Shown in pieces: positions 1 to 14,104 of a stretch of 64,000 bases of DNA. The first letter of the stretch is position 1; each line of letters begins with the position of its first letter. The notes below the pieces were generated by a model. That model was not told the origin of the DNA. It worked only from the letters and a program-made list of their open reading frames with translations, and made no database searches. The DNA comes from Candidatus Multivoradales bacterium (GTDB taxonomy: Bacteria > Acidobacteriota > Thermoanaerobaculia > Multivoradales > JAHEKO01), in contig CBDCXM010000009.1 of assembly GCA_965223855.1 (NCBI GenBank), positions 1,632,001 through 1,696,000 of the forward strand, given 5' to 3'. The position numbers were made by a program, and so were the translations under genes.

Positions 1-626
1 GCGGTTTCGCTGCGGCGCGGGTCGATGACGACGAGACAGCGCTCGGGATCGCGGGCGATCTCTCCGATCACCGCCCGGGCGCGGGCGATGCCGTGTGACT
101 GCCATGGGTTCTTGCCGAGGAAGACCGCGACCTCGCAGTGCTCGAAGTCGCCGTGAGCGCCGATGCCGAGCATCTTGCCGGCGACCCAGAACTCACCCGT
201 CTTCTCCTGCGCCAGGGCGTTGGAGCGGTAGCGCACCCCGAGCGCCTTGAGCCAGGCGTCGATGTAGGTGCCGCCCAGGTGGTTGCCCTGGCCGCCGCCG
301 CCGAAGAAGAGGATCCTGTCGCCGCCCCATTTTTCGCGTACCGCCCCCATCCGCTCGGTGATCTCGGCGATCGCGGTGTCCCAGTCGACCGGCTCGTAGC
401 TGCCGTCCTCGCGGCGGCGCATCGGCGAGGTGATTCGGTCGGCGCCGTTCTGGTAGTAGTCGAGCCGCTGCGCCTTCTCGCACAGGTAGCCCTTCGAGAC
501 CGGGTGTGCCTTGTCGCCGACGATGCGAGTGAAGCGGCGATCGTCGGACTGCGCCTTCACGCCGCAGTTGAGCGAGCAGAGGATGCACGCGGTGTGATGC
601 CAGGGCTGGCTGTCAGGCGGGGGCAT
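1..626 (-). CDS. Molybdopterin (Mo-bisPGD) oxidoreductase, N-terminal part; runs off the left window edge
   Basis: Not in the ORF track because it has no stop in the window. Manual translation from ATG at 626: MPPPDSQPWHHTACILCSLNCGVKAQ...GDKAHPVSKGYLCEKA...RITSPMRR...VDWDTAIAEI...FLGKNPWQSHG...LVVIDPRRSET. This is the CxxCxxxC...C 4Fe-4S motif plus DMSO-reductase-family motifs. Confidence 0.88.
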   Translation of the reverse strand, partial: MPPPDSQPWHHTACILCSLNCGVKAQSDDRRFTRIVGDKAHPVSKGYLCEKAQRLDYYQNGADRITSPMRRREDGSYEPVDWDTAIAEITERMGAVREKWGGDRILFFGGGGQGNHLGGTYIDAWLKALGVRYRSNALAQEKTGEFWVAGKMLGIGAHGDFEHCEVAVFLGKNPWQSHGIARARAVIGEIARDPERCLVVIDPRRSET

Positions 627-682
627 ATCCTGCGGCGCAGCATATCGGGAACGACGGTCGGAGGCCCCGATGGCGGGGCTAC

Positions 683-698
683 CTACCCCGGAGGGTGG
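683..698. promoter_or_regulatory. Candidate NarL/LuxR-type operator CTACCC-N4-GGGTGG
   Basis: Imperfect palindrome in the divergent intergenic region; matches the perfect palindrome at 4738-4753. Confidence 0.4.
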
Positions 699-775
699 CT
701 GCGACAGCCGTGATTGCGGGTACCGTCCGACTGGATTCGTCGCTCGAACGTTCCTCGCAGCAAGGAGGCCTCGCC

Positions 776-2713
776 ATGGGTCAGACCGACGTCAGCGCCG
801 CCTTCGATCCGCAGCAACTGCGGCTCTTCGGGCAGAAGGTGCTCCGCGATCTCCGGGCGCTCGAAGCGATGATCGAACAGTCTCTGTTCGAGACCGACCG
901 CCGCCGGATCGGCGCCGAGCAGGAGATGTGCCTCGTGACCCCGGAGGGGTTCCCGGCGCTCGTCGGGCCGGCGATTCTCGAGGCGGTCGAGGATTCGCAC
1001 CTGACGACCGAGCTCGGCCGCTTCAATCTCGAGCTCAACCTCGACCCGCAGGAGTTCGAGGGGCATGCGCTGTCGGTGATGGAGGGGCAGCTGCTCGAGT
1101 TGCTGGCGATCGTGCGCCGTGGGGCGCGCGAGGAGGGGAGCGAGGTGTTGCTGACCGGGCTCCTGCCGACGCTCGAGAAACGCCACCTGACCCTCGAAGC
1201 GATGACCCCAGTACCGCGCTACCACGCCCTCAACGAGGCGATGCGCCGGCTCCGCGACGGTGAGGACTTCCAGTTCCACATCCGCGGCGAGGACGAGCTG
1301 CGCGTCTCGCACGACAATGTGATGCTCGAGGCGTGCACGACGAGCTTCCAGGTCCACTACCAGGTGGCGCCGGCGGAGTTCGCCCTCGCCTACAACACCG
1401 CTCAACTTCTGGCGGCGCCGGTGCTGGCGGTCGCCACGAACTCGCCGCTCCTCTTCGGCCATCGGTTGTGGAGGGAGACGAGGATCGCCGTCTTCGAGCA
1501 GTCGATCGACACGCGGCCGACGGCGTCGCACCACCGTCAGCAGGCGCGGCGCGTGAGCTTCGGCCGCGAGTGGGTGAAGGAGTCGGTGCTCGAGCTCTTC
1601 CGGGACGACATCTCGCGGTTCCCGGCCGTGCTGGCCGTCGAGACGGACGAGGACTCGCTGGCGCTCCTGGAGAAGGGGGAGATCCCGAAGCTGCGTGCGT
1701 TGCAGCTGCGCAACGGCACGGTCTATCGCTGGAACCGGCCCTGCTACGGCATCACCGACGGCAAACCCCACCTGCGGATCGAAAACCGGCTGCTGCCTTC
1801 CGGGCCCTCGGTGCGCGACGAGATGGCGAATGCCGCGCTGTGGCTGGGGTTGATGAGCGGCCTCCCGGCGCAGCTGGGGGATCCGTCGTCGCTGCTGCCG
1901 TTCGACGAAGCGCGGTCGAACTTCATCGCCGCCGCGCGCCATGGGCTCGACGCGCAGGTGAGCTGGCCGGGGCTCGGGCGGCTGCCCGTCGCGGTGCTCC
2001 TCGAGGAGACGTTGCTGCCGATCGCCCGCCAGGGGCTCGAGGAGGCAGGTGTCGCTCGTGACGACGTCGACGAGTATCTGTGGGTCATCGCCGGTCGGGT
2101 TCGCTCCGGTCGCACGGGCTCGCGCTGGATCCTGGAGGCTGCCGGCGGAGAGCGGGGGATGGCGAAGGCGTCGGCACTGGCCCACGTGGTGCGCGAGACG
2201 CTGGCGCGCCAGGCGGAAGGCCTGCCGGTGCACGAATGGTCGCCGGCACAGCCGCCGGCGGAGGTGGCGACCCCGGGGCCGGACCTCACCGTTTCTCATC
2301 TGATGACGGGGGATCTCTTCACCGTCGGCGAGGAGGAGGTCGTCGATGTGGTGGCCGCGGTGATGAACTGGCGGCACCTGCGCCGGATTCCGGTGGAGGA
2401 CGCCGCCGGGCGGCTCGTCGGGCTGGTGACCTATCGGGCGCTGCTGCGGGTGCTGAGCGACTCCCAGGCGCGCCGGGCGCTGCCGGTGGGGGAGATCATG
2501 ACGCGCGACCTGCACACGGCGTCGCCCGACACGACGGTGCTCGAGGCGCTCAAGACGATGCAGGAGCATCGGGTCGGCTGTCTGCCGATCGTCGACGGCG
2601 ACCGGCGGCTGGTCGGCATCCTGACCGAGCACGACCTGATCGGACTCGCGCGGCCGCTGCTCGAGCGCCACCTGACGGGTGACGAAGGCGGCCCGACCGA
2701 CCGGGCGGAGTAG
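776..2713 (+). CDS. Glutamate-cysteine ligase family (GCS2) protein fused to a C-terminal CBS-domain pair
   Basis: AGGAGG at 763-768 before ATG 776. GCS2 motifs IGAEQEM, ELGRFNLELN, SFQVHYQV, NSPLLFG..LWRETR, HLRIENR. C-terminal CBS repeats (VSHLMT...RRIPVED...LVGLVT; VGEIMT...GCLPIVD...LVGILTEHDL). Confidence 0.85.
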   Translation: MGQTDVSAAFDPQQLRLFGQKVLRDLRALEAMIEQSLFETDRRRIGAEQEMCLVTPEGFPALVGPAILEAVEDSHLTTELGRFNLELNLDPQEFEGHALSVMEGQLLELLAIVRRGAREEGSEVLLTGLLPTLEKRHLTLEAMTPVPRYHALNEAMRRLRDGEDFQFHIRGEDELRVSHDNVMLEACTTSFQVHYQVAPAEFALAYNTAQLLAAPVLAVATNSPLLFGHRLWRETRIAVFEQSIDTRPTASHHRQQARRVSFGREWVKESVLELFRDDISRFPAVLAVETDEDSLALLEKGEIPKLRALQLRNGTVYRWNRPCYGITDGKPHLRIENRLLPSGPSVRDEMANAALWLGLMSGLPAQLGDPSSLLPFDEARSNFIAAARHGLDAQVSWPGLGRLPVAVLLEETLLPIARQGLEEAGVARDDVDEYLWVIAGRVRSGRTGSRWILEAAGGERGMAKASALAHVVRETLARQAEGLPVHEWSPAQPPAEVATPGPDLTVSHLMTGDLFTVGEEEVVDVVAAVMNWRHLRRIPVEDAAGRLVGLVTYRALLRVLSDSQARRALPVGEIMTRDLHTASPDTTVLEALKTMQEHRVGCLPIVDGDRRLVGILTEHDLIGLARPLLERHLTGDEGGPTDRAE

Positions 2714-3370
2714 CTAGCTGTCCTCCTGCTCCTTCGGGCTGCCGTGGCCGGCCTGGAGGGCGAAGGCGACGACCTGCGCGCGGTTGTTGAGGTGCAGCTT
2801 CTCGAAGATGTGCCGGATGTGAAACTTGACCGTGTTCTCGCTCACACCGAGGTGCTCCGCGAGATCGCGATTGCTCGTCACGCCGTGGATCATCAGGTCG
2901 AGTACCTGGTCCTCGCGCTCGGTGAGCGCCTCCACCATCGGTGTGTCGAGGGTGCCGGCGCCGCTGAAGTCGCCACGGACCCGGCGCGCCATCGAGGGGG
3001 TGAGGAGCGGATGTCCCTCGGCGAGGCTGTCGAGGACGGCGAAGAAGTCCTCCGCCATCAGGTTCTTGAGCAGATAGCCGCGCGCACCGCTCTTGATGGC
3101 GGCGAACACCGAGGCGTCGTCGTCGCTCGCCGTCAGAACGACGACATGGGTCTCGGGGAGCTCGGCGCTGATCGCCCGGGTGGCGTCGAGTCCGCTCATG
3201 CGGGGCATCGTGAGGTCCATCAGCACGACCTCGGGCTTGAGCTCGAGGGTTAGATCGACCGCCTCACGTCCGTCGCTCGCCTCCGCGACCACCTCGTAGT
3301 CGTTCGCCTCCAGCAGGCTGCGCAGACTGGCGCGAAAGAGCGCGTGATCGTCTGCGATGAGGAGCCTCAC
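2714..3370 (-). CDS. NarL/LuxR-family response regulator
   Basis: REC domain (LIADDH, VLMDL, GYLLK) plus LuxR HTH (LTEREDQVL...SNRDLAEHLGVSENTVKFH). Confidence 0.93.
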   Translation of the reverse strand: MRLLIADDHALFRASLRSLLEANDYEVVAEASDGREAVDLTLELKPEVVLMDLTMPRMSGLDATRAISAELPETHVVVLTASDDDASVFAAIKSGARGYLLKNLMAEDFFAVLDSLAEGHPLLTPSMARRVRGDFSGAGTLDTPMVEALTEREDQVLDLMIHGVTSNRDLAEHLGVSENTVKFHIRHIFEKLHLNNRAQVVAFALQAGHGSPKEQEDS

Positions 3371-4704
3371 GGGTCGGTGCCTTGTCTCCTCGGCACCTCC
3401 GCAAGGATCTTCGTCCCCTCACCGGGTGCCGTGGTGAGCGTAAGGGTACCGCCAATTCCCTCGACGCGCTCGCGCATGATCGACAGGCCGTAGCCGTTGC
3501 CCTCGGCGGCGGTCTCGACCTCGAATCCGGTGCCGTCGTCCGAGACCGAGAGGGTGGTGCCCTCGCCGTTGGCGGCCATCCTGATCTCGACCCGGCCGGC
3601 AGCGGCGTGACGGCGGACGTTCGACAGCGCCTCCTGCAGCACCCGGTAGAGCTCCCACTTGGAGGTCCAGGGCAGCTGGACCGCCTGGCTCGAGACGGCG
3701 GTGACGATGCCGGTCTGCTCGGACCAGTCCTGCGCATAGGCGTCGACGGCTTCCTCGAGGTCGAGCTCGGAGTTGAGAGGATTTCGCAGTGCGAGGATGC
3801 TCTCCCGGACCTCGTCGTACGCCGTCCGCGCCGACTCGCCGAGCCCCTCCAGATGGCCAAGGACGGCGTCGGTGTCGTTCTTGCGCAGCAGTCTCAGAGC
3901 CGCCTGCGAGCGGACGCTGACCGAGGCGAGCACCTGCGCCAGGCCGTCGTGCATCTCGCGTGCGATGCGCAGAGCCTCGTTGGAAACAGCGGCGGAGCGC
4001 AGTTGCTCGTGGTGGGAGGAGGTATCGACCGCGAGCCCGGCGATCCTGGCGAAACGGACGAGCGATTCTTCGTCGAACTGGGTGAACGCCGGCGCCGTCT
4101 CCTTCTCGGCCAGGTAGAGATTGCCGCGAAAGCCGTTACGGGACGCGATCGGGACGGCGAGAAGGGATTTCATCGGCGGGTGCTTGGCGGGGAAGCCGGC
4201 GGAGCGGGGGTCGCGGGCGAGGTCGTCGAGGCGCAACCGCTCGCCCCTTAGCAGTGGAACCGCCAGCAGGCCGCGACCGGTGGGCGGAGCCCCGATCTGC
4301 TCGGCGAGCTCGGGCTCGATCCCGGAGGTGATGAACTCGACGATGGTCCCCTCGTCGTCGACGACGGACAGTGCTCCGTAGCGCGCGTCCATGAGTTCAC
4401 GAGCCTGTTCGACGATTCGCTCCAGCAGTTGCCCCAGGTCGAGGTCGCCGTGGATCTCGAGACCCGCCTCGTAGAGTGCATAGAGTTCGTCGTTGTGGCG
4501 TTCCAACCTCTCTCGAAGCAGCACCTGCTCCCGGATTGCGCCGATGCCGAGCGCCACTACGCAGGCGACGAAGAGCAGCTTCACTGCGACCGTCGTCCAA
4601 CCGGGCGCGGCGGGGGGGAGGAGCAGATACAGCGCTACCAGCATCACGATGAGCGCGAGCGCTACCGTCCAGTGCCACTTGTACCGCCGGGCGGTGGGTT
4701 GCAT
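3367..4704 (-). CDS. Membrane-anchored GAF sensor histidine kinase (HisKA_3; DosS/NarX-like)
   Basis: Two TM helices, a GAF domain (RYGALSV...GFPAKHPPMKSLLAVPI), H-box RIAREMHDGLAQ, and QEALSNVRRH / DDGTGF / GYGLSIMRER. Overlaps the regulator start by 4 nt. Start placed at ATG 4704 rather than the track's 4791. Confidence 0.9.
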   Translation of the reverse strand: MQPTARRYKWHWTVALALIVMLVALYLLLPPAAPGWTTVAVKLLFVACVVALGIGAIREQVLLRERLERHNDELYALYEAGLEIHGDLDLGQLLERIVEQARELMDARYGALSVVDDEGTIVEFITSGIEPELAEQIGAPPTGRGLLAVPLLRGERLRLDDLARDPRSAGFPAKHPPMKSLLAVPIASRNGFRGNLYLAEKETAPAFTQFDEESLVRFARIAGLAVDTSSHHEQLRSAAVSNEALRIAREMHDGLAQVLASVSVRSQAALRLLRKNDTDAVLGHLEGLGESARTAYDEVRESILALRNPLNSELDLEEAVDAYAQDWSEQTGIVTAVSSQAVQLPWTSKWELYRVLQEALSNVRRHAAAGRVEIRMAANGEGTTLSVSDDGTGFEVETAAEGNGYGLSIMRERVEGIGGTLTLTTAPGEGTKILAEVPRRQGTDP

Positions 4705-4737
4705 GCGCGCATTGTAGGGAAGTCGGCTCGAAGCCGC

Positions 4738-4753
4738 CCACCCGATCGGGTGG
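4738..4753. promoter_or_regulatory. Perfect 16-bp palindrome CCACCCGATCGGGTGG, candidate response-regulator site
   Basis: Lies in the 85-bp divergent gap between the kinase and the porin operon. Confidence 0.5.
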
Positions 4754-4789
4754 TGCGTTGCGTCGGGCGGTGTCTCAGAATCGAAGGGC

Positions 4790-6052
4790 ATGTACGCAAG
4801 ATGCGCCTTCGCGGCGCTGACCGTCGTTGCCGCCCTGGCGGCGCCGGTGTCTGCCGGCCGGGAGCCGGCGGCTCGAAACGCGGCCGACGGAGAGGACAGC
4901 AGCGCCTCGACGGAGGGTTCCGGTCTCCTGTCGGCCCTGCGGGCGGGCGAAACCAGCCTGGGCCTGCGCTACCGCCACGAGACCGTCTCGGTCGATTCTC
5001 CCGTGCGGGACGCGCACGCCTCTACCCTTCGCACGACGCTCGGGTGGAAGTCGGGCTCCTACTACGGCTGGCGGGTGTTTCTGGAGGCCGAGGACGTTTC
5101 GGTTCTCGGCGATCGCGACGGCTATCGCAACGCCGGGGCCGGGGCGTTGTCGAACGGCGTCGACGACCGGGCGGTGGTGGCCGATCCCGCTCTCACCGAG
5201 CTCAACCAGGCGGGGCTCCGCTGGCAGGGAAGACGGGGCGAACTCGTGGTCGGTCGGCAGGAGATCAATCTCGCCGACCAGAGGCTGGTCGGCGCCGTCG
5301 GCTGGCGGCAGAACCATCAGTCGTTCGAGGCCGTTCTCTTCCGCTACAGAACGGCGAACGGAATCGGCTTCGAGGCTGCACAGCTCGAGAGTGTGCAGCG
5401 GATCTTCGGCGACGCCCGCGACCTCTCCGGGCAGCTGCTGCAAGTGGACTGGGGGCACGGCCCGGTGAAGCTGAGGGCCTACGTGCTCGAGGTCGACTTC
5501 GAGCGCTTCGCCGGACTTTCGACCCGCACGGCGGGTGCCGAAGGCCGTTGGACGACCGCTCTGACCTCCCGCCGATCCCTCGAGGCCGAGATCGAGTACG
5601 CCGTGCAGGAAGACGCCGGCGCAAACCCAGACAACGTCGAAGCCGACTACCTCCACTGGAGCGTCGGGCTGTCCGGGGAGCCCCTTTCGTTGTGGGTCGG
5701 AGGCGAAGAGCTGTCGGGCGCCCCCGACGAAGGGCGCTTCGCGACCCCGCTGGCCACGCTGCACAAGTTCAACGGCTGGGCCGATCAGTTCCTGCAGACG
5801 CCCGAGAACGGCCTCCGCGACCTCCATGTAGGTCTCGGGGCGCAGCGAGGTGCCTGGCTGGGCGAACTGAGGGCCCACCGGTTCGACGCCGCCAGCGGCG
5901 GCGCCGAGTACGGCGACGAGTTGGACCTGCTGGTGCGGTGGAAGAGCGGCTGGGGCCAGACCTTCGCCCTCAAGATGGCCGACTACGGCGCGGACGGTCA
6001 CTCGGTCGATACGACGAAGTGGATGCTTTGGACGGAGGTGCGCTTTCCATGA
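4790..6052 (+). CDS. Outer-membrane beta-barrel protein, alginate-export (AlgE-like) family
   Basis: Signal peptide, alternating beta-strand pattern, motifs VGRQEINLADQRLVGAVGWRQN and FATPLATLHKFNGWADQF, aromatic residue near the C-terminus. Confidence 0.75.
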   Translation: MYARCAFAALTVVAALAAPVSAGREPAARNAADGEDSSASTEGSGLLSALRAGETSLGLRYRHETVSVDSPVRDAHASTLRTTLGWKSGSYYGWRVFLEAEDVSVLGDRDGYRNAGAGALSNGVDDRAVVADPALTELNQAGLRWQGRRGELVVGRQEINLADQRLVGAVGWRQNHQSFEAVLFRYRTANGIGFEAAQLESVQRIFGDARDLSGQLLQVDWGHGPVKLRAYVLEVDFERFAGLSTRTAGAEGRWTTALTSRRSLEAEIEYAVQEDAGANPDNVEADYLHWSVGLSGEPLSLWVGGEELSGAPDEGRFATPLATLHKFNGWADQFLQTPENGLRDLHVGLGAQRGAWLGELRAHRFDAASGGAEYGDELDLLVRWKSGWGQTFALKMADYGADGHSVDTTKWMLWTEVRFP

Positions 6053-6660
6053 GTGACGCGTCGAGGGATTCCAAGGCCAGCACCACCACGGGCGGCGACC
6101 CGAGGGAAACGTCGTCACCTTCCGCAGCGCGGGCCCAGCCGCCGAGCGAGGATCGCCGGGACTTCCTGGCCAGGGCGTCGAAGGTCGCCATGGCCACAGG
6201 CCTCGCGGCGGGGTACGGTGCCCTCGGAGTCGTCGCGGCTCGCTATCTCTATCCAGCCGGGTCGACCGACGAGGGGTGGGTGTTCGCCGCCGAGACGGCG
6301 AAGATGCGCCCCGGCGATTCGAGGCTCTTTCGGGGCCCGTCCGGGGAGACGATCAACATCACCCGGACGGCGGCCGAGGAGTCGGCGGAGAGTTTCATCG
6401 CGCTCTCGAGCACCTGTCCGCACCTGGGATGCCAGGTGCACTGGGAGCCGCAGAACGACCGCTACTTCTGCCCCTGCCACAACGGGACCTTCGATGCCGA
6501 GGGGAAGGGGACCGGCGGTCCGCCGGGAGATGCGGGTCAGACACTCCCGAAGTACCCGCTGAGAGTGGAGAAGGGGCTGCTGTTCGTCTCCGTGCCTTCC
6601 TCGCAGCTGGCGCGCGGTGAGCGACTCGTCGAGATCGAGCGGAGGAGACGGCGATCCTGA
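6049..6660 (+). CDS. Rieske 2Fe-2S protein (Tat-exported; Rieske/cytochrome b complex subunit)
   Basis: ATG 6049 overlaps the porin stop (ATGA). Tat motif DRRDFL, a TM helix, and boxes CPHLGC and CPCHNG. Confidence 0.92.
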   Translation: MSDASRDSKASTTTGGDPRETSSPSAARAQPPSEDRRDFLARASKVAMATGLAAGYGALGVVAARYLYPAGSTDEGWVFAAETAKMRPGDSRLFRGPSGETINITRTAAEESAESFIALSSTCPHLGCQVHWEPQNDRYFCPCHNGTFDAEGKGTGGPPGDAGQTLPKYPLRVEKGLLFVSVPSSQLARGERLVEIERRRRRS

Positions 6661-7706
6661 GCGGAGCACAGAGCTGGCTCAAAGAGCGGATCCCCGTGTC
6701 GGGCTCGCAGATGCGCGAGCTCACGAACGAGCCGGTGCCCCACCACCTGAAGCGCTGGTGGTTCGCCCTCGGTGGCACACCGGCCTACCTCTTCGTGGTG
6801 CAGATCTTCACCGGGATTCTCCTCGCCTTCTACTACGAGCCGTCGTCGCAGTCGGCCTACGAATCGGTGCGCTACATCACCGAGGAGGCGGCGTTCGGCT
6901 GGTATCTGCGCAGCGTCCACAAGTGGGCGGCCACGCTGATGATCGCCGCCGTGGTGCTGCATCAGATGCGGGTCTATTTCACCGGCGCCTACCGCCGCCC
7001 GCGGGAGCTCAACTGGGTCGTCGGGATGTGTCTGCTGCTGACGACCCTGATGACCGGTTTCACCGGTTACAGCCTGGTCTACGAACAGCTCTCGTTCTGG
7101 GGTGCGACGGTCGGCGCCAACATCACCGACACCGTGCCGGTCGTCGGCGGATTCCTGAAGACGATGCTCCTGGCGGGCGACAGCTACAACGAGCACACGT
7201 TGTCCCGCTTCTTCGTGCTCCACGCCGCCGTCTTGCCCGTGACGATCATCCTGCTGGTGGTCGTGCACGTGATCTTCATTCGCCTCCAGGGGGTGACGGA
7301 GTTCAAGTTCAAGGACGAGGAGCGACTGCCGGCCAGGTCGTTCAACTTCTTCCCGGAGCATCTGATGACGGAGCTCACGATCGGGCTGGTCCTGATGGTG
7401 ATTCTGTCGGCACTCGCCACGATCTTTCCAGCCGTCATGGGGCCGCCCGCGGATCCGCTGACCACTCCCGAAGTCATCAAGCCCGAGTGGTTCTTCTATG
7501 TGGCGTTCCGCTGGTTGAAGCTCTTTACTGGGACCGCGGCGGTGCTGAGCATGGGGTTGATCGTCGGCACGATGTTCGCCTGGCCGTGGATCGACGGTTG
7601 GATCCGGCGACGGACGAGGTTCAAGGAGGCGAGCGTCTGGATCGGCATCGTCGGGGTGCTCACGATCGTCGCGCTCACCGTCTGGGAGGCAGTGGTCAAA
7701 CACTGA
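6657..7706 (+). CDS. Cytochrome b of a Rieske/cytb complex (b6-like N-domain fused to the PEW-containing subunit IV region)
   Basis: WWFALGG, LRSVHKW, LHQMRV, RELNWVVG, GFTGYSL, RFFVLHAA, IKPEWFFY. The b6-like WLKERIP lies upstream of the GTG at 6696, so the start is probably CTG 6657 (uncertain). Confidence 0.9.
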   Translation: MSGAQSWLKERIPVSGSQMRELTNEPVPHHLKRWWFALGGTPAYLFVVQIFTGILLAFYYEPSSQSAYESVRYITEEAAFGWYLRSVHKWAATLMIAAVVLHQMRVYFTGAYRRPRELNWVVGMCLLLTTLMTGFTGYSLVYEQLSFWGATVGANITDTVPVVGGFLKTMLLAGDSYNEHTLSRFFVLHAAVLPVTIILLVVVHVIFIRLQGVTEFKFKDEERLPARSFNFFPEHLMTELTIGLVLMVILSALATIFPAVMGPPADPLTTPEVIKPEWFFYVAFRWLKLFTGTAAVLSMGLIVGTMFAWPWIDGWIRRRTRFKEASVWIGIVGVLTIVALTVWEAVVKH

Positions 7707-7715
7707 GGAGCTGTC

Positions 7716-9356
7716 ATGACACTCGAGACCAAACGTTGGATCATCGCCGCGCTCGGCTTTCTCTTCCTGCTCTCTCTCGTGCTGGTGCAGTGGATGGAGA
7801 CGGCGCGCAAGGCGGAGGAAGCGGGCCTGGCCAAGGCTCACATCGCGGTGCCCGACAGTTCGAAGGAATGCGTCAAGTGTCACGACCAGAGCACGCCGGG
7901 GATCATCGGCCACTGGGAGGGGAGTACCCATGCGGAGAAGGGTGTCGGCTGTGTCGAATGCCATCGGGCCGAGTCCTTCGATGCGGACTCGTTCGAGCAC
8001 TACGGCGAGGTGATCGCCACCGTCGTCACGCCGCGCGACTGCGCCGGTTGTCATCTGAAAGAGGCGGAGCAGTTCGCCTCCAGCCACCACGCCAAGGGCG
8101 GCAACATCCTCGCTTCGCTCGACAACTTCCTCGCCGAGACGGTCGAAGGCTCGCGCGAGCCGTTCAATCCCCACAGCCCTACGCCCGGGATGCAGGTGAA
8201 CGCCGTCAACGGTCTGGCGAGCGCGTTTTCCGGCTGCCAGCAGTGCCATGGGTCAAAAGTGGCGCTGCTGGGAGAGGACGGTCGGCAGATCACCGTCGAT
8301 GACCTGCAGCCCGACGAGAACGGGCGGCCGACCAACGTCGTCGCGGTGGAGGCGATCGCCCGCGACGAGAACGGCAAGCCGAGCTTCCATCCCGGTACCT
8401 GGCCCAACACGGGCATCGGGCGACTCAATCTCGACGGATCACGAGGATCGTGCTCGGCCTGTCACAGCCGTCACGATTTCTCGCCGCGCCGGGCACGTCA
8501 GCCGGAGAACTGCGGCAAATGCCACCTCGGCCCCGACCATCCTCAGAAAGAGATCTTCGAGGAGTCGAAGCACGGCGTCGCCTACCGCGACCTCAAGGAC
8601 GACCTCAACCTCGACGGCGAGGACTGGGTGCTGGGGGTGGACTACTCCGCCGCCCCGACCTGCGCCACGTGCCACATGTCCGGCCATCTGCGCAACGGCG
8701 GCGAGGTGACCCACGACCCGGGCGAGCGCATCTCATGGACGAACCGGCCTCCGGTGTCGCTCGTCATGGACACCGACGAGAACCATGCGATCGTCAAGGA
8801 GACCGATCCCGACAAGAGGCGTGAGCTCATCGCCGACAGCTGGGAGGACAAGCGCAATCGGATGAAGCAGGTGTGCTCGCACTGCCACACCCCCGACTAC
8901 GTCAACGCCTTCTACCGGCAGTACGACGACCTGGTCATCCTCTACAACGAGAAGTTCGCCAAGCCGGGACAGCAGATCATGGCGGCGTTGGCGGCGGCCG
9001 GCTTGCGATCGCCCACCCAGTTCGACGAAGAGATCGAGTGGACCTGGTTCTACCTGTGGCACCACGAGGGGCGGCGGGCGCGTCACGGCGCGTCGATGAT
9101 GGCGCCCGACTACACGCACTGGCACGGCATGTACGAGGTCGCGGAGCGGTTCTACATGGAGCTCATCCCACAGGCGCGCGAGATCACTCACGAGGCGAGG
9201 GCGGACGGGCACGCGGCTGCGGCCGCCGAGGTGGACGGAGTGATCGCCGCCATCCTTGCCCGGCCCGAGCACGAATGGTTCGAGGAGGGGGCCGTGGCCG
9301 AGACCGAGCGGGTGCGAGAGGAGATGCGACGGCGCTACGGTCAGGGCGGCGGTTAG
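7716..9356 (+). CDS. Membrane-anchored octaheme c-type cytochrome, hydroxylamine oxidoreductase (HAO) family
   Basis: N-terminal TM helix. Eight CxxCH motifs: CVKCH, CVECH, CAGCH, CQQCH, CSACH, CGKCH, CATCH, CSHCH. HAO motifs RHDFS, GPDHPQKEIFEESKHG, APTCATCHM and HGASMMAPDYTHWHG. GAGGAG RBS. Confidence 0.92.
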   Translation: MTLETKRWIIAALGFLFLLSLVLVQWMETARKAEEAGLAKAHIAVPDSSKECVKCHDQSTPGIIGHWEGSTHAEKGVGCVECHRAESFDADSFEHYGEVIATVVTPRDCAGCHLKEAEQFASSHHAKGGNILASLDNFLAETVEGSREPFNPHSPTPGMQVNAVNGLASAFSGCQQCHGSKVALLGEDGRQITVDDLQPDENGRPTNVVAVEAIARDENGKPSFHPGTWPNTGIGRLNLDGSRGSCSACHSRHDFSPRRARQPENCGKCHLGPDHPQKEIFEESKHGVAYRDLKDDLNLDGEDWVLGVDYSAAPTCATCHMSGHLRNGGEVTHDPGERISWTNRPPVSLVMDTDENHAIVKETDPDKRRELIADSWEDKRNRMKQVCSHCHTPDYVNAFYRQYDDLVILYNEKFAKPGQQIMAALAAAGLRSPTQFDEEIEWTWFYLWHHEGRRARHGASMMAPDYTHWHGMYEVAERFYMELIPQAREITHEARADGHAAAAAEVDGVIAAILARPEHEWFEEGAVAETERVREEMRRRYGQGGG

Positions 9357-9419
9357 CACCGTAGAGGGGAGTGAGGCCGCGGCCGGTCCCGCGGGCGGGC
9401 GAACCCCTGTCAGGTGGCT

Positions 9420-10274
9420 TCAGCCCGACAGGTGCCTGCGGAACCAGGTCTGCGTCGCGTTGAGGACGGTCGTGAGGTGCGGGTTCGGGGAACCGAGCGG
9501 GTGAGTGGCGCCGAAGGTATGGTTGCCGCCTTCGACCAGCACGCTCTCGAAGCTCGATCCGGTCGCGACACCTTGCAGGGCCCCGGCCTCCGCCACCGGC
9601 ACGGTCTCGTCCTCCGTCCCGTGTACGAGCAGCCACGGCGTCTCGATCCGCGCGGCGGCCGCCCGAACGTCGTACTCGTCGAGACGACCCTCGCCGTCCT
9701 CGATCAGCGAGGCGTCGAGAAAAAGCTCCTGTCCGGTGCGACCGTTGACGATCGGCAGCCGCCCGCTTTCGCGCCACGCCTGCTTCGCCTCTTCGTCGAT
9801 CCGGTCCCAGGTCGAGATCGCCGCCCAGGTCACGAGGGCGCGCAGCCGTCCGCGCCAGCGCTCGGAGCCGGCGGTGACGATCGACAGACCGCCGCCGCGG
9901 CTGTGACCAAGCAGGCCCAGGCGCTCGGTATCGACCCGGCCGGCGGCGAGGCGGTCCTCGGTGAGCGCGGTCAGCACGGCGTCGATGTCCTCGAGATCGT
10001 CGCCGAAGGTGCGCCGGGCGAACGCCTCTTCGTCGGTCACGAGGTCGTCCCCCGGCTGCATGCCCGAGCTGCCGAGATTGAAGCGGACGACGGTGAAGCC
10101 TCGTGCCGCCAGCAGGTCGGCGAGGTAGGGATGGAAGCCCCACTCCTGGAAGCTCTTGAAGCCGTGGCAGTCGAGGACGGTCGGCCGGCGGCCCGGGGTG
10201 TCGGGAAGGTCGAGGATACCGGGGAGCACACGACCGGAAGGCGTGTCGAGGGCGAAGCTCTGGCGTTCGGGCAT
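9420..10274 (-). CDS. Alpha/beta hydrolase
   Basis: HGFKS, nucleophile elbow GHSRGG, VHGTEDETVP, GGNHTF. Confidence 0.85.
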   Translation of the reverse strand: MPERQSFALDTPSGRVLPGILDLPDTPGRRPTVLDCHGFKSFQEWGFHPYLADLLAARGFTVVRFNLGSSGMQPGDDLVTDEEAFARRTFGDDLEDIDAVLTALTEDRLAAGRVDTERLGLLGHSRGGGLSIVTAGSERWRGRLRALVTWAAISTWDRIDEEAKQAWRESGRLPIVNGRTGQELFLDASLIEDGEGRLDEYDVRAAAARIETPWLLVHGTEDETVPVAEAGALQGVATGSSFESVLVEGGNHTFGATHPLGSPNPHLTTVLNATQTWFRRHLSG

Positions 10275-10337
10275 GGAGGCATCCTATCGGCACCTGTCGT
10301 GCGCCCAGGGGCTCGTCTGCAGGGGTAGACTGCCGGC

Positions 10338-11315
10338 GTGATCGGGCGAGCGGCGTGGATGGAGGGGGCCGGCTGGACCGAGCGGCGGTGGAGCGAGGCG
10401 TTTCTCGCGCGCGGCGAGGATCGGGTCCGCTTCCTCAACGGGTACCTCACCTGCGAGGTCGCTGCCGAGAACGGCAGCTTCGGCTTCTTCACCCACGCGA
10501 AGGGGGGCATCCTCGCCGACGCGGTGGTTCAGGCGCGCGAAGGGGAGCACCGGATCGTGGTGCCGGATGGGCGGGGAGAGGCTCTCCTCGAGCATCTGCG
10601 GCGCTACGTGATCGCCGACCGGGTCGAGTTCGAGCTGGAGGAAGGCGTGGCGGAGTGGATCCTGGCGGGGGAGGGCGCCGCCGGCATGCTCTCGGCACTC
10701 GGTGTCGACGTACCGCGCGTCGAAGCAAGGGAGGAGTGGACGACGGTCACCGGCAAGCTCGGCGGTGCGGCGGTCCACGTCACGCTGGAGCGTGACCTCG
10801 GGGCGCCGGTGTTCTCGATTGCCGCTGCCATCGAGGACGCCGCCGGCGTCGCTGGAGCTCTCGAGAGTTCCGGCGCCGAAACGGTCGACGGGGCGGCGTT
10901 CGAAGCGGCTCGGATCGCCGCCGGAGTGCCCCGCTACGGCGTCGACTACGACGAGCGTCACTTTCCGCAGGAGACGGGGCTCGAAGACGGGATCAGTTAC
11001 ACCAAGGGCTGCTATCTGGGCCAGGAGGTGGTGGCGAGGATTCACTATCGCGGCCACGTCAACCACAGTCTGCGGGCTCTCGACTTCGAGCTGACCGATT
11101 CGTTGACGCTGCCCGAGCCGGGCACGCCCGTGACGTTCGAGGGCGACGAGGTCGGTCGGGTCGGCAGCTCGGCTCGCTTCGAGCCCGACGGAGTGGCGCG
11201 TGCTCTGGCGGTGCTCCACCGCAAGGCGGCCGAACCCGGGACGACCGTTCGCGTCGCCGGCGGCCTGGCAGCGGTGGTCGTCGTCGCACGATCGCCTCAC
11301 GGCTCTGTTATCTGA
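10338..11315 (+). CDS. ygfZ: YgfZ/GcvT folate-binding protein
   Basis: GEDRVRFLNG and the signature ISYTKGCYLGQEVVAR. Confidence 0.85.
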   Translation: MIGRAAWMEGAGWTERRWSEAFLARGEDRVRFLNGYLTCEVAAENGSFGFFTHAKGGILADAVVQAREGEHRIVVPDGRGEALLEHLRRYVIADRVEFELEEGVAEWILAGEGAAGMLSALGVDVPRVEAREEWTTVTGKLGGAAVHVTLERDLGAPVFSIAAAIEDAAGVAGALESSGAETVDGAAFEAARIAAGVPRYGVDYDERHFPQETGLEDGISYTKGCYLGQEVVARIHYRGHVNHSLRALDFELTDSLTLPEPGTPVTFEGDEVGRVGSSARFEPDGVARALAVLHRKAAEPGTTVRVAGGLAAVVVVARSPHGSVI

Positions 11316-11337
11316 GGTTCCTCGACAGGAGGAACCC

Positions 11338-12012
11338 GTGAAACAGAGTCTGACCCCAGCCCTGATCTGCGAACTGGTCGGTACCTTCGCCCTGGTCTTC
11401 GTCGGCGCCGGCGCGGCCGCCCTCGGCGTGGGCGGTCTCCTGGGAGCCGCCTTCGCACACGGCATGGTCGTCGTCGGTTTCGTCTACGCCTACGGCCACG
11501 TCTCCGGTACCCACATCAACCCCGTGGTGACGATCGGCTGCTGGGTCGCCGGTGCCATCGGCACCGGCCAGGCGCTCTTCTACGTCGTCTTCCAGCTCTT
11601 CGGGGGAGTTCTGGGAGCGATGACCCTGCGTACGGTGCTCGGCGGTGCGGAAACGGGGCTGGGGCTGACGCTGCCGGCTCAGGAACTCGCGATCGGTGAC
11701 GCCAGCCTGACGATCGGCGCCGGGATGGCGATTCTCATCGAGGCGATCCTGACGTTCTTTCTCGTCAATGCGGTCCTCAATGCCGCCGTCAGCGGCAAGG
11801 CCGGGAGTCTCGCGGCGGTAGGGATCGGCATGACGCTCATGGCCTGCATCCTCATGGGCGCACCGCTCACCGGGGCGAGCTTCAACCCGGCGCGCTCTCT
11901 CGGACCGGCCGTGGCGACGGGGCAGTTCCAGCAGTTGTGGATCTACTTCGTCGGCCCGACTCTCGGCGCCGTGGTGGCGGCGCTCCTCTACCGCGGCTTG
12001 CTCGAGGAATAG
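11338..12012 (+). CDS. MIP-family aquaporin
   Basis: GGAGG RBS then GTG 11338. SGTHINPVV and GASFNPARSLGPA motifs; six hydrophobic segments. Confidence 0.9.
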   Translation: MKQSLTPALICELVGTFALVFVGAGAAALGVGGLLGAAFAHGMVVVGFVYAYGHVSGTHINPVVTIGCWVAGAIGTGQALFYVVFQLFGGVLGAMTLRTVLGGAETGLGLTLPAQELAIGDASLTIGAGMAILIEAILTFFLVNAVLNAAVSGKAGSLAAVGIGMTLMACILMGAPLTGASFNPARSLGPAVATGQFQQLWIYFVGPTLGAVVAALLYRGLLEE

Positions 12013-12086
12013 GGAACCCGAGTCTCAGGAGCCCGACTCTCAGGAGCCCGGGCCCCGGGAGTCGGGGGCGTGGCAGGACCGGGGTG

Positions 12087-12467
12087 TCAGACGGCGAAGG
12101 ACGAGCCGCAGCCGCAGGTGCCGACCGCCTGCGGGTTGATGAACTTGAAACCGGCCCCGGTCGTGCCGAGGACGTAGTCGATCTCGGTGCCCTGGAGATA
12201 GCGCGCGCTGATCGGATCGACGAAGACGGTCAGTCCGTCGTACTCGAGCACGAAGTCGTTCTCCCGCGGCTCGAGTTCGAAGTCGAGGGCGTACTCGAAG
12301 CCGCTGCATCCGCCGCCGCGGACCGCCACCCTCAGGCCGGAGGCCTCGTCGATCTTCTCCGTCTCGCGGGTGATCTTCACCATCTGCACCGCCTTGTCGG
12401 TGAGGGCGATCGGGGTGGGTGCCGGAGGCGTCGCCGCATCCGGAGTCGTGGTCGGGGTGGTTTCCAT
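12087..12467 (-). CDS. A-type Fe-S cluster carrier (HesB/IscA/ErpA)
   Basis: LRVAVRGGGCSGFEY and C-terminal NPQAVGTCGCGSSF. Confidence 0.92.
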   Translation of the reverse strand: METTPTTTPDAATPPAPTPIALTDKAVQMVKITRETEKIDEASGLRVAVRGGGCSGFEYALDFELEPRENDFVLEYDGLTVFVDPISARYLQGTEIDYVLGTTGAGFKFINPQAVGTCGCGSSFAV

Positions 12468-12525
12468 CTTCAGCGCTCCTTGCCGGCGTTGTCGTTGCCG
12501 ACTGGAGGAAAGTGTACCAAGCGGG

Positions 12526-13957: not shown

Positions 13958-14009
13958 GATCTTGGGTGCGGCAGTGGCGGCCGTCGCGATCACGGCCGCT
14001 TCAACCAGT

Positions 14010-14038
14010 GAGATGCAGCGAACCGCCGTCAGGTTACA
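14010..14038 (-). promoter_or_regulatory. Putative ECF promoter TGTAACC-N15-GCATCTC driving the sigma operon
   Basis: Minus strand reads TGTAACCTGACGGCGGTTCGCTGCATCTC; a near-identical copy lies on the plus strand at 14076. Confidence 0.65.
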
Positions 14039-14075
14039 TCGTGCGGCCGGCCGTGCGAGCCGGCCCCGGCTCCTT

Positions 14076-14104
14076 TGTAACCCGATCGGCGGTTCGCGCA
14101 TCTC
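14076..14104 (+). promoter_or_regulatory. Putative ECF promoter TGTAACC-N15-GCATCTC driving the Spy/CpxP gene
   Basis: TGTAACCCGATCGGCGGTTCGCGCATCTC, same length and boxes as the minus-strand copy. Confidence 0.65.

What the first reader, a model, noticed from the sequence alone, without database searches (positions are those of the whole stretch)
2714..9356. Self-contained porin-Rieske-cytochrome b-octaheme HAO respiratory module with its own two-component system
Seen: a tightly coupled operon (ATGA overlap, probable CTGA overlap, 9-bp gap) encoding an outer-membrane beta-barrel, a Tat Rieske protein, cytochrome b with PEW and a TM-anchored octaheme HAO-family protein. There is no cytochrome c1, and a GAF kinase/NarL pair is divergent. 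Known: Rieske/cytb complexes associated with HAO-like octahemes are described in anammox Planctomycetes, and HAO-family proteins interconvert NO2-/NO/NH2OH/NH4+. Inference: a quinol-driven Q-cycle nitrite/NO/hydroxylamine reductase (an energy-conserving route not needing NrfA/NirS), or an NH2OH-detoxifying complex, in an apparently heterotrophic non-anammox bacterium. It is the best protein-coding candidate for an uncharacterised system in this window.
Basis: partly seen in the sequence, partly recalled or inferred. Interest (0 to 1): 0.85.

Follow-up and report, generated by a model that had tools for sequence, protein, structure and literature searches.

The report
Quinol-oxidising complex with built-in octaheme reductase
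This is a respiratory gene set in which an eight-heme enzyme of the hydroxylamine-oxidoreductase family takes the place of cytochrome c1 in a Rieske/cytochrome b complex, most likely to reduce nitrite; the layout has been noted before in a few bacteria but never tested at the bench, and it is very widespread.

Summary
Window 4790-9356 (+) carries four tightly packed genes: an 18-strand outer-membrane channel, a Tat Rieske protein, a 7-helix cytochrome b with a CTG start, and an N-terminally anchored octaheme of the HAO/IhOCC family. A DosS/DosT-like heme-GAF kinase and a NarL-type regulator lie divergent to them. There is no cytochrome c1.

The conserved core is only Rieske-cytb-octaheme: 66 of 71 related loci with enough flank have it. 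The channel occurs in 25 of 80 loci and a kinase cluster-mate of the window's in 3 of 80. NapA follows the octaheme in 32 of 66 loci.

The octaheme has His, not Tyr, at the position aligned with the cross-link Tyr of oxidative HAO. It keeps the Asp-His pair after heme 6. A complex prediction packs its N-terminal helix against cytochrome b (0.75 versus best control 0.00).

Best reading: an electrogenic menaquinol:nitrite (or NO, hydroxylamine) reductase that can also feed Nap.

The arrangement is already in print as a genomic inference for Nitrospira, Caldithrix abyssi and, in a larger form, anammox bacteria. This is therefore a new member of a known but biochemically untested kind. Interest is moderate.

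The parts
2714..3370 (-). NarL/DosR-type response regulator (receiver plus LuxR/GerE helix-turn-helix)
   Evidence: Pfam Response_reg 2.4e-27 and GerE 4.3e-16. NCBIfam NarL 2e-43, below the curated cut-off. Cluster-mates lie beside the cassette with the kinase in L006, L021 and L026.
3367..4791 (-). Membrane sensor histidine kinase with a DosT/DevS-like heme-type GAF domain, HisKA_3 and HATPase_c; the true start is probably Met30 near 4704
   Evidence: Pfam. PDB phmmer: DosT GAF-A 2vzw at 1.7e-30 and DevS 2w3d at 3.3e-26. The alignment keeps the His of 'HPPM'. That this His is the heme ligand is recalled, not tested.
4790..6052 (+). Outer-membrane 18-strand channel of the OprD/Occ/AlgE type with a signal peptide
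   Evidence: Pfam Alginate_exp 4.3e-07; a locus homologue scores 2.7e-28. The AF2 model has pLDDT 79.3 and 18 strands. Foldseek finds OccAB4, OccD2, OpdK and AlgE with TM 0.61-0.75. Cluster-mates occur in 25 of 80 loci.
6049..6660 (+). Tat-exported Rieske [2Fe-2S] subunit; its ATG overlaps the stop of the channel gene (ATGA)
   Evidence: Pfam Rieske 6.4e-10. NCBIfam b6f and bc1 iron-sulfur subunit hits lie below their cut-offs. RRDFL, CPHLGC and CPCHNG were read. The junction was read.
6657..7706 (+). Unsplit seven-helix cytochrome b with a CTG start overlapping the Rieske stop (CTGA), four conserved heme His and a PEWF Qo motif
   Evidence: Pfam Cytochrome_B 8.7e-54 and Cytochrom_B_C 1.2e-09. 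H88, H102, H189, H204 and P276-E277-W278 are invariant in 46 sequences. The start position was compared with 69 homologues. The helix count is my reading of the sequence.
7716..9356 (+). N-terminally membrane-anchored octaheme cytochrome c of the HAO/IhOCC family, reductive type
   Evidence: Eight CxxCH motifs. PDB profile search: IhOCC 4qo5 at 1.4e-108, then Kustc0458 and HAO. AF2 model pLDDT 91.4 with helix 3-35. Foldseek TM 0.63/0.66 to 4qo5. Predicted docking of residues 1-36 on cytochrome b.

Best explanation
The three core genes encode one membrane complex.

Proposed path of electrons (inferred). Menaquinol is oxidised at the Qo site of a seven-helix cytochrome b. One electron passes through the Tat-exported Rieske cluster. 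It then enters a membrane-anchored octaheme of the HAO/IhOCC family, which sits where cytochrome c1 or f sits in ordinary complexes. The electrons run along the bis-His hemes to the five-coordinate heme 4, where nitrite is reduced to ammonium or to NO; NO or hydroxylamine are possible substrates too. Because quinol is oxidised through a Q-cycle, this reduction would build proton-motive force.

In about half of the relatives the same octaheme probably also passes electrons to NapA and a NapB-like tetraheme encoded directly downstream.

In this window the cassette stands without nap. It carries an OprD/AlgE-type outer-membrane channel in front, which may admit the anionic substrate (guess). It is probably switched on by a divergent DosS/DosT-DosR-like sensor of low oxygen or NO (inferred).

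Shown here: gene anatomy, family membership, conservation, synteny and an in-silico docking. Inferred: substrate, product, electron path, energy coupling and regulation.
For: 1. Family and fold. There are eight CxxCH motifs. The profile hit to IhOCC 4qo5 is 1.4e-108 over the full length, followed by Kustc0458 and the HAOs. Foldseek gives TM 0.63/0.66 to 4qo5. Soares et al. call IhOCC an octaheme nitrite reductase (PMC9250108, passages).

2. Reductive signature. The NeHAO cross-link Tyr467 (chain index in 4fas_A) aligns with His468 of the query. In 28 close relatives that column is His in 25 and Gln in 3, never Tyr. Asp274-His275 after heme 6 is kept in 28 of 28. Ferousi et al. tie absence of the Tyr to reductive catalysis (PMC8042395, abstract and passages).

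3. Heme ligation. Six non-motif His are conserved in 65 sequences: four invariant, H72 and H95 in 63 and 64 of 65. H449/H450 are conserved in all 28 close relatives and in 28 and 26 of the 37 distant ones. This fits seven bis-His hemes plus one open heme.

4. Complex. Rieske and cytochrome b lie directly upstream on the same strand in 66 of 71 loci. Overlapping or 9-bp junctions link the genes in the window. No c1 gene is present. The complex prediction scored 0.75 against a best control of 0.00. The three runs agreed in at least 90% of contacts and the partner pLDDT was at least 84. That mark was reached by 116 of 157 solved complexes and 2 of 215 mismatched pairs. The interface is octaheme residues 1-36 against cytochrome b helices A, B and G. 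No like complex is solved to my knowledge.

5. N-oxide context. NapA follows in 32 of 66 loci with at least 2500 bp downstream, and in 22 of them within 300 bp. The representative scores 956 bits against NCBIfam NF010055, cut-off 904. A NapB-like tetraheme occurs in 14 loci and an Rrf2/NsrR-like regulator in 6. A motif screen of the 33 nap loci found no NapC-like tetraheme, and ferredoxin-type motifs in only two unrelated ORFs.

6. Regulation. The kinase GAF domain matches DosT and DevS GAF-A at 1.7e-30 and about 3e-26.

7. Precedent. Caldithrix abyssi makes ammonium from nitrate without NrfA and has Rieske-cytb-epsilonHao beside nap (PMC5317091, passages).
Against: - No activity, product or physical complex has been measured for any member of this clade. 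The papers I saw on Nitrospira, Caldithrix and Kuste4574 all state or imply inference only.
- The window's 64 kb holds no napA, nir, nor, nrf or nitrate or nitrite transporter gene. The N-oxide link therefore rests on relatives.
- Bis-His hemes of HAO-family proteins are often low-potential, so transfer from a Rieske centre may be uphill for part of the chain. This rests on general knowledge and was not computed.
- Solved HAO-family enzymes are trimers or built from trimers, according to passages in PMC8042395, whereas Rieske/cytochrome b complexes are dimers. How a trimer-former would sit 1:1 on cytochrome b was not tested.
- The docking involves only the anchor helix. It used my own alignments, so the calibration counts hold only roughly. 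No Rieske-to-heme distance could be measured because no coordinates were available.
- The alignment around the cross-link Tyr is local, and a conserved Tyr466 lies two residues upstream. The three-way register W-T-Y (NeHAO), W-T-T (IhOCC) and Y-T-H (query) supports the alignment but does not prove it.
Confidence: 0.6

Rival explanations
1. The octaheme is only a wire. It replaces cytochrome c1 as the electron exit of the Rieske/cytochrome b complex and hands electrons to periplasmic reductases, NapAB above all, without catalysing anything itself. On this view the cassette is a NapC/NapGH substitute.
For: NapA lies directly behind the octaheme in many loci: 32 of 66, and within 300 bp in 22. 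No NapC-like or NapGH-like ORF was seen by motif in the 33 nap loci. Qcr-dependent Nap respiration is cited for Campylobacterota in the reference list of PMC6896113 (Hein 2017, Garg 2018; titles only seen).
Against: About half of the loci, and the window itself, have no napA nearby. The Asp-His pair is invariant in the close clade and the count of conserved His fits one open heme; a pure wire has no need for these. A wire would also not need about 75% identity across phyla.
Confidence: 0.2
2. The chemistry is the same, nitrite to ammonium, but the purpose is assimilation or detoxification rather than respiration. The enzyme would supply ammonium from nitrite, or remove NO or hydroxylamine.
For: The Nitrospira octaheme with its Rieske/cytochrome b genes lies among nitrogen-assimilation genes and is read as assimilatory (PMC6311188 and PMC5767232, passages). 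A heme-GAF sensor could respond to NO. Rrf2/NsrR-like regulators occur in 6 loci.
Against: The frequent nap linkage and the DosS-like hypoxia sensor fit anaerobic respiration better. No glnA, amt or nirA genes lie in the window near the cassette. A Q-cycle complex is costly machinery for detoxification alone.
Confidence: 0.12
3. It works in the oxidative direction, as a hydroxylamine- or hydrazine-oxidising HAO that feeds electrons into the chain.
For: Automatic annotations name relatives 'hydroxylamine oxidoreductase' or 'hydroxylamine dehydrogenase'.
Against: The position aligned with the cross-link Tyr is His or Gln in 28 of 28 close relatives. Rieske/cytochrome b complexes oxidise quinol; they do not reduce quinone from a c-type donor under normal conditions (established knowledge). 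No amo or hzs genes lie in the window.
Confidence: 0.03
4. It is a porin-cytochrome conduit for extracellular electron transfer to metals, with the barrel housing or partnering the octaheme.
For: An outer-membrane barrel gene comes first in the operon. Cytochrome b scores 1.4e-66 against the NCBIfam model for ExtP, a Geobacter selenite/tellurite-operon cytochrome b, but below its cut-off.
Against: The barrel is an 18-strand OprD/AlgE-type substrate channel. It is present in only 25 of 80 loci, in three different positions. The octaheme is predicted to be anchored on cytochrome b in the inner membrane. No periplasmic or outer-surface multiheme gene lies nearby.
Confidence: 0.03

Closest known systems
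Nitrospira octaheme cytochrome c (OCC/'ONR') co-localised with a Rieske/cytochrome b pair (N. moscoviensis, N. japonica)
   Same: An octaheme of the wider HAO/NrfA superfamily sits next to two genes for a Rieske/cytochrome b complex. It is read as a periplasmic nitrite reductase wired directly to the quinone pool (PMC6311188 and PMC5767232, passages). No biochemistry exists.
   Different: There it lies among nitrogen-assimilation genes and is read as assimilatory. Here there is a channel and a DosS-like sensor, and relatives carry nap. Orthology with the window's protein was not tested because I could not fetch those sequences. An Atlas look-alike cluster commonest in Nitrospirota is only a lead.
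Caldithrix abyssi Cabys_2558-2557-2556 (Rieske, cytochrome b, epsilonHao) beside the nap cluster
   Same: The gene order Rieske-cytb-Hao is the same and it adjoins nap. There is no cytochrome c1 and the cross-link Tyr is absent. The complex is proposed to be electrogenic. The organism ammonifies nitrate without NrfA (PMC5317091, passages).
   Different: Its nap set is NapMADGH-like and lies upstream. The relatives here have napA plus a NapB-like tetraheme downstream, and no NapGH was seen. The authors describe that Hao as periplasmic; here it is N-terminally anchored. Orthology was not tested.
Anammox Rieske/cytochrome b complex R/b-3 (Kuenenia Kuste4569-4574)
   Same: A Rieske/cytochrome b complex that includes an HAO-like octaheme (Kuste4574), thought to reduce nitrite to NO (PMC12954380 and PMC12485887, passages).
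   Different: The anammox complex has a split b6/subunit-IV cytochrome b, an extra hexaheme or octaheme cytochrome and an NAD(P) oxidoreductase subunit, and is proposed to bifurcate electrons to NAD(P)+. None of these is present here.
IhOCC of Ignicoccus hospitalis (PDB 4qo5) and Kustc0458 HAOr (PDB 6h5l)
   Same: These are the closest solved structures. Both are reductive octahemes without the P460 cross-link (PMC9250108 and PMC8042395, passages).
   Different: Sequence identity is low: 24% and 18% in the Foldseek alignments. IhOCC has Asp-Val where the query, HAO and Kustc0458 have Asp-His. Neither is known to me as a subunit of a Rieske/cytochrome b complex.
Canonical cytochrome bc1 / b6f
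   Same: Shared features are the Rieske boxes, the four heme-b His ligands, a PEWY-type Qo motif (here PEWF) and Tat export of the Rieske protein.
   Different: There is no monoheme c1 or f; an octaheme enzyme takes that place. Cytochrome b has seven helices, is unsplit and has Ala at the heme-ci Cys position.

Membership tests
HAO/IhOCC octaheme cytochrome c family (Pfam PF13447; clade 1 of Soares et al. 2022) | Eight CxxCH heme-binding motifs in the family's order | tested here: met
   Motifs lie at residues 52, 79, 109, 174, 246, 266, 316 and 387, and all eight are invariant in 65 sequences.
HAO/IhOCC octaheme cytochrome c family | Fold like the solved family members | tested here: met
   AF2 model pLDDT 91.4. 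Foldseek probability is 1.00 to 4qo5 (TM 0.63/0.66), 6h5l, 1fgj, 4n4j and 6hif. NrfA and ONR score only TM 0.3 or below.
HAO/IhOCC octaheme cytochrome c family | Seven bis-His hemes plus one five-coordinate catalytic heme (heme 4) | tested here: inconclusive
   Six non-motif His are conserved (four invariant, H72 and H95 nearly so), and H449/H450 are conserved in all 28 close relatives. This fits the pattern, but no coordinates with hemes were available to assign ligands.
HAO/IhOCC octaheme cytochrome c family | Asp-His pair after the heme 6 motif (its role as an active-site pair is recalled) | tested here: met
   The GPDHPQ motif is kept in 28 of 28 close relatives. It aligns with the DH of NeHAO and Kustc0458; IhOCC has DV.
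Oxidative HAO/HDH subgroup (P460 enzymes) | Cross-linking Tyr (NeHAO Tyr467) | tested here: not met
   The aligned position is His468. The column is His in 25 and Gln in 3 of 28 close relatives.
HAO/IhOCC octaheme cytochrome c family | Homotrimeric assembly | not tested
Rieske/cytochrome b complexes (bc1, b6f and relatives) | Rieske cluster boxes CxHxGC and CxCH, and a Tat signal | tested here: met
   CPHLGC, CPCHNG and RRDFL were read. Pfam Rieske scores 6.4e-10.
Rieske/cytochrome b complexes | Four His ligands of hemes bL and bH, and a PEWY-type Qo motif | tested here: met
   H88, H102, H189 and H204 are invariant, and P276-E277-W278 (PEWF) is invariant in 46 sequences.
Rieske/cytochrome b complexes | A c-type cytochrome subunit of the c1, f or diheme kind | tested here: not met
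   No such gene lies in 1-17000. The only c-type gene is the octaheme.
Rieske/cytochrome b complexes | Physical association of the octaheme with cytochrome b | tested here: met
   This was tested in silico only. The score was 0.75 against a best control of 0.00, with at least 90% contact agreement and partner pLDDT of at least 84. That mark was reached by 116 of 157 solved complexes and 2 of 215 mismatched pairs. No experiment has been done.
Anammox R/b-3 type complex (Kuste4569-4574) | Split b6/subunit IV, an NAD(P) oxidoreductase subunit and an additional multiheme cytochrome | tested here: not met
   Cytochrome b is a single 349-residue protein. No flavoprotein or second multiheme gene lies nearby.
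Nitrospira / Caldithrix Rieske-cytb-octaheme clusters | Gene order Rieske, cytochrome b, octaheme without c1 | tested here: met
   Window order was read. The literature order comes from passages in PMC5317091 and PMC6311188.
Nitrospira / Caldithrix Rieske-cytb-octaheme clusters | Orthology of the proteins with those named examples | not testable with these tools
DosS/DosT-DosR type two-component systems | Heme-type GAF domain, HisKA_3 kinase core and a NarL/LuxR-type regulator | tested here: met
   The GAF domain matches 2vzw at 1.7e-30 and 2w3d at 3.3e-26, with the His of HPPM kept. HisKA_3, HATPase_c, Response_reg and GerE are present. Heme binding itself was not tested.
OprD/Occ/AlgE 18-strand outer-membrane channels | 18-strand barrel with a signal peptide | tested here: met
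   The model has 18 strands. Foldseek gives TM 0.61-0.75 to OccAB4, OccD2, OpdK and AlgE. The Pfam Alginate_exp match is weak.

The most novel reading that the evidence does not exclude
This clade is a major uncounted nitrite (or NO) reductase of soils, sediments and waters. It would be a bc-type proton-motive complex whose c-subunit is itself the catalytic HAO-family octaheme. It is carried by hundreds of species of Planctomycetota, Acidobacteriota, Gemmatimonadota and Chloroflexota. In a subset it comes with a dedicated OprD/AlgE-type outer-membrane channel for nitrate or nitrite. Surveys based on nrfA, onr, nirK and nirS would miss it. One such survey used HAO and IhOCC sequences only as false-positive controls (PMC10716430, passage).
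Probability: 0.4. Interest if true: 0.65.

Novelty: new member of a known kind. Interest (0 to 1): 0.42.

Why it matters
If the complex reduces nitrite through a Q-cycle, nitrite ammonification or NO formation would conserve more energy than the NrfHA route, which is held to be non-electrogenic. That view is stated in passages of PMC5317091 citing Simon and Klotz.

The cassette is very common:
All of the best 80 are 68-79% identical over the best segment.
- 7993 protein clusters at 90% identity match with E up to 1e-10, among the 8000 candidates scored.

Genomes that look as if they lack a nitrite reductase may therefore not lack one. This has been noted for Phycisphaerae, where nirK and nirS are missing (PMC11266412, passages). 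Budgets for nitrate ammonification against denitrification would then need this gene family.

It also offers a natural case of an enzyme fused functionally to a bc-type complex.

Tried and rejected
- Start coordinate 6050 for the Rieske gene gave stop codons. The correct start is 6049.
- A first synteny script that kept the longest ORFs lost the true genes in this 68% G+C DNA. It was replaced by a filter on codon-position G+C.
- The promoter and terminator scan of 4500-9700 gave counts no higher than shuffles and says nothing about operon limits.
- The literature search for 'epsilon Hao' with 'Rieske' found 0 papers. 'napA, hao, cytochrome bc, Gemmatimonad' found only the Caldithrix paper and an unrelated one. 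'octaheme' with 'Gemmatimonadota' gave 7 papers; I opened none, and none looked specific from the listing.
- Soares et al. and the Desulfuromonadia survey do not mention Rieske or cytochrome b in the context of IhOCC.
- An extracellular electron-transfer reading was considered because of the barrel. I rejected it because the barrel is an 18-strand substrate channel and is accessory.
- An oxidative HAO reading was rejected on the Tyr position.
- The Atlas search gave look-alike clusters only. It holds no model of this protein, so it gave no structural search.
- Orthology with the Nitrospira, Caldithrix and Kuenenia proteins could not be tested.

Full report
**What is there**

The region lies in DNA of about 68% G+C. 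ORF listing, reading of the junctions and family scans give six genes.

On the minus strand:
- A NarL-type response regulator, 2714-3370.
- A membrane histidine kinase with one GAF domain, HisKA_3 and HATPase_c, 3367-4791.

On the plus strand:
- An outer-membrane protein, 4790-6052.
- A Rieske protein, 6049-6660.
- A cytochrome b, 6657-7706.
- An octaheme cytochrome c, 7716-9356.

The stop of the outer-membrane gene overlaps the Rieske ATG (ATGA at 6049-6052). Nine bases separate cytochrome b from the octaheme.

For cytochrome b, the frame is open from 6621. It has no ATG, GTG or TTG before the GTG at 6696. I printed the upstream frames of 69 homologues. Most have a start codon (ATG, GTG or TTG) about six codons before the conserved Trp of the motif W-x-x-x-R-[LI]-P. 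That is exactly where the window has CTG at 6657. A CTG start overlapping the Rieske TGA is therefore the best call.

If the longest ORFs are taken, the kinase start and the outer-membrane gene start overlap head to head at 4789-4792. The kinase probably starts at its Met30 (inference).

No other ORF with a heme c motif was called in 1-17000, so there is no cytochrome c1.

**The parts**

*Rieske protein.* It has an RRDFL twin-arginine motif and the boxes CPHLGC and CPCHNG.

*Cytochrome b.* It is a single 349-residue protein. I count seven hydrophobic helices, which would put its C-terminus on the periplasmic side. In an alignment of 46 sequences, the four His that should bind the two b hemes (H88, H102, H189, H204) and P276-E277-W278 of PEWF are invariant. 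The window has Ala at the position where b6-type proteins carry the heme-ci Cys.

*Octaheme.*
- It has eight CxxCH motifs.
- Its best solved relatives by sequence profile are IhOCC of Ignicoccus (4qo5, 1.4e-108, full length), then Kustc0458 and the HAOs.
- A model built on 65 sequences has mean pLDDT 91.4 and a long N-terminal helix, residues 3-35.
- Foldseek puts the model with 4qo5 (TM 0.63/0.66), 6h5l, 1fgj, 4n4j and 6hif at probability 1.00. NrfA and ONR fall far below.
- In the profile alignment the cross-linking Tyr467 of Nitrosomonas HAO (index in chain 4fas_A, 'GGWTYTEGW') falls on His468 of the query ('PDYTHWHG'). IhOCC has Thr there.
- In 28 close relatives this column is His 25 and Gln 3. 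The Asp-His pair after heme 6 is kept in all 28.
- Six non-motif His are conserved across 65 sequences, four of them invariant. One more pair, H449/H450, is conserved in all 28 close relatives. This fits seven bis-His hemes and one open heme, but I could not assign ligands without coordinates.

*Outer-membrane protein.* It models as an 18-strand barrel with pLDDT 79.3. It resembles the OprD/Occ channels and AlgE, with TM 0.61-0.75.

*Kinase.* Its GAF domain matches the heme-binding GAF-A domains of DosT and DevS at 1.7e-30 and about 3e-26, with the His of 'HPPM' conserved. That this His ligates heme is recalled, not tested.

**How common, and what travels with it**

The octaheme has very many close relatives.
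- 7993 clusters at 90% identity match with E up to 1e-10, among the 8000 candidates scored. Apart from the window's own protein, the best 120 are 74-82% identical.
- At 50% clustering the whole close clade collapses onto one full-length representative at 70% identity. The next relatives stand at about 42-53%.
- The best 80 loci are all MAGs. By their titles they are Planctomycetota 28, Gemmatimonadota 18, Acidobacteriota 18, Chloroflexota 3 and others 13.

I called ORFs in these loci, clustered them and named the clusters with Pfam and NCBIfam.
- *Core.* Rieske and cytochrome b lie directly upstream on the same strand in 66 of 71 loci with at least 1900 bp of flank. The exceptions are L009, L022, L031, L049 and L052.
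- *NapA.* A periplasmic nitrate reductase NapA is present in 32 of 66 loci with at least 2500 bp downstream, and within 300 bp of the octaheme stop in 22. The representative scores 956 bits against a cut-off of 904.
- *Behind NapA.* A NapB-like tetraheme with two NapB-like halves follows in 14 loci. A 190-residue protein with no Pfam match follows in 11.
- *Channel.* It occurs in 25 of 80 loci, in three places: upstream co-directional in 8, upstream divergent in 8 and downstream of nap in 7. In two more loci it sits closer upstream, where Rieske and cytochrome b are missing. Eighteen of the 25 also have napA.
- *Regulators.* A kinase cluster-mate with its regulator is found in 3 loci (L006, L021, L026). 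An Rrf2/NsrR-like regulator is found in 6.
- *Other quinol dehydrogenases.* A motif screen of the 33 nap loci found no NapC-like tetraheme. It found ferredoxin-type motifs in only two unrelated ORFs.

The window itself has no nap, nir, nor or nrf gene in its 64 kb. Its own layout (regulator, kinase, channel, Rieske, cytochrome b, octaheme) is matched best by L006, an Acidobacteria MAG.

**Do the parts bind?**

One complex job was run with full-length cytochrome b and octaheme, each with its own alignment.
- The score was 0.75 in the median of three runs, against 0.00 for the best of three controls.
- The runs agreed in at least 90% of contacts, and the partner pLDDT was at least 84.
- That mark was reached by 116 of 157 solved complexes and 2 of 215 mismatched pairs. 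The counts hold only roughly because my own alignments were used.
- The confident interface is the N-terminal helix of the octaheme (residues 1-36). It packs against cytochrome b residues 30-37, 93-109 and 324-346, and near the PEWF loop.

The model supports binding but does not show it. I know of no solved complex of this kind, so the pass is unlikely to come from memory of one. Helix packing of c1 or f on cytochrome b is a known theme, however.

**Explanation**

The best reading is a three-subunit quinol oxidase in which the octaheme is both the c-type subunit and the terminal reductase. Nitrite is the most likely substrate. The product, ammonium or NO, is open. Where nap follows, the same hemes probably also supply NapA. 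The channel may admit nitrate or nitrite. The kinase may sense low oxygen or NO. All of these functional steps are inferred.

Points against this reading:
- There is no biochemistry for any member.
- There are no N-oxide genes in this window.
- Electron transfer from the Rieske centre may be uphill for part of the heme chain.
- HAO-family trimers and bc dimers have mismatched symmetry.
- The alignment around the Tyr position is local.

Rivals, with my odds:
- A pure electron wire to Nap: 0.2.
- An assimilatory or detoxifying role with the same chemistry: 0.12.
- An oxidative HAO: 0.03.
- A metal-reducing conduit: 0.03.

**Comparison with what is known**

Passages I read show closer precedents.
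[quoted passage not shown] This is read as nitrite reduction tied to the quinone pool (PMC6311188; also PMC5767232).
- In Caldithrix abyssi, Rieske (Cabys_2558), cytochrome b (Cabys_2557) and epsilonHao (Cabys_2556) lie beside nap, there is no c1, and the authors discuss an electrogenic route (PMC5317091).
- The anammox Kuste4569-4574 complex is larger and has an NAD(P) oxidoreductase subunit (PMC12954380, PMC12485887).
- A Phycisphaerae survey noted the hao-like octaheme as a likely nitrite reductase, but no passage found by my term search tied it to a Rieske/cytochrome b pair (PMC11266412).
- A subsea-tunnel MAG study lists hao, napAB and R/b genes without describing the operon in the passages I saw (PMC10732223).

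My searches for a description of the operon in Gemmatimonadota or Acidobacteria found none. That covers only the held library, and I read no supplements.

The following were not read: Koch 2015, Parey 2016, Haase 2017, Klotz 2008, Simon and Klotz 2013, Hein 2017 and Garg 2018. They are cited only through other papers or from recall.

**Verdict**

This is a new member of a known kind. It is known from genome reading only, it is untested, and it is far more widespread than the few named cases suggest.

- the CTG start of cytochrome b;
- the reductive signature of the octaheme;
- the predicted anchor-helix docking on cytochrome b;
- the nap linkage across phyla without NapC or NapGH;
- the recurrent OprD/AlgE-type channel;
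- the DosS-like sensor.

Noticed in passing
window 7704 (last codon of cytochrome b, His349); alignment A5: The very last residue of cytochrome b is a His that is invariant in 46 of 46 sequences ('WEAxVxH' then stop). With seven helices it would lie on the periplasmic side, next to residues 345-346 that touch the octaheme anchor in the predicted complex. It could be a contact or even a metal or heme ligand.
   Followed up: partly
alignment A5, column of window cytochrome b residue 37 (WWFALGG): Many Planctomycetota copies have Cys here (WWFCLGG), the position of the heme-ci Cys of b6-type cytochromes. The window and the Gemmatimonadota and Acidobacteriota copies shown have Ala. L055, L062 and L065 have a longer cytochrome b of about 490 residues that matches in two pieces.
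   Followed up: no
L020 and L050 (both on contig OZ220742.1): One Thermoanaerobaculia genome carries two full copies of the Rieske-cytb-octaheme cassette about 1.4 Mb apart.
   Followed up: no
L035:11616-12191 and cluster-mates in 11 loci: A conserved protein of about 190 residues with no Pfam or NCBIfam match lies just after napA or the NapB-like gene. It may be a Nap maturation factor or an unknown subunit.
   Followed up: partly
L060:10960-11556 and cluster-mates in 14 loci: The 'NapB' behind napA has four CxxCH motifs in two NapB-like halves, each with 'APPVIPH'. It has a lipoprotein-like N-terminus, so it looks like a tandem NapB rather than the usual diheme.
   Followed up: partly
window 695-2713 (+): A 672-residue protein with a glutamate-cysteine-ligase-family-2 domain and two CBS domains abuts the regulator gene. 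A 52%-identical homologue sits directly upstream of the Rieske gene in L021, and CBS-only matches occur in L027 and L045.
   Followed up: no
window 4789-4792: The longest-ORF starts of the kinase (minus strand) and the channel gene (plus strand) overlap head to head, leaving no promoter space. At least one start, probably the kinase's, must lie further in.
   Followed up: partly
window 62803-63246 and 63212-63580 (+): A short-chain dehydrogenase is split over two overlapping ORFs. Pfam adh_short positions 1-96 fall in the first and 131-183 in the second. This looks like a frameshift or a sequencing error.
   Followed up: no
window 47902-52035 and 55457-56413: A hopanoid gene set is present: squalene-hopene cyclase, a radical-SAM protein with DUF3463, an epimerase and a squalene/phytoene synthase.
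   Followed up: no
window 10338-11315 and 11200-12012 (+): A GCV_T-fold protein and a MIP-family channel overlap by 116 bases as called, so the MIP start probably lies further in. An aquaporin-type channel close to a nitrogen-oxide cassette may be a coincidence.
   Followed up: no
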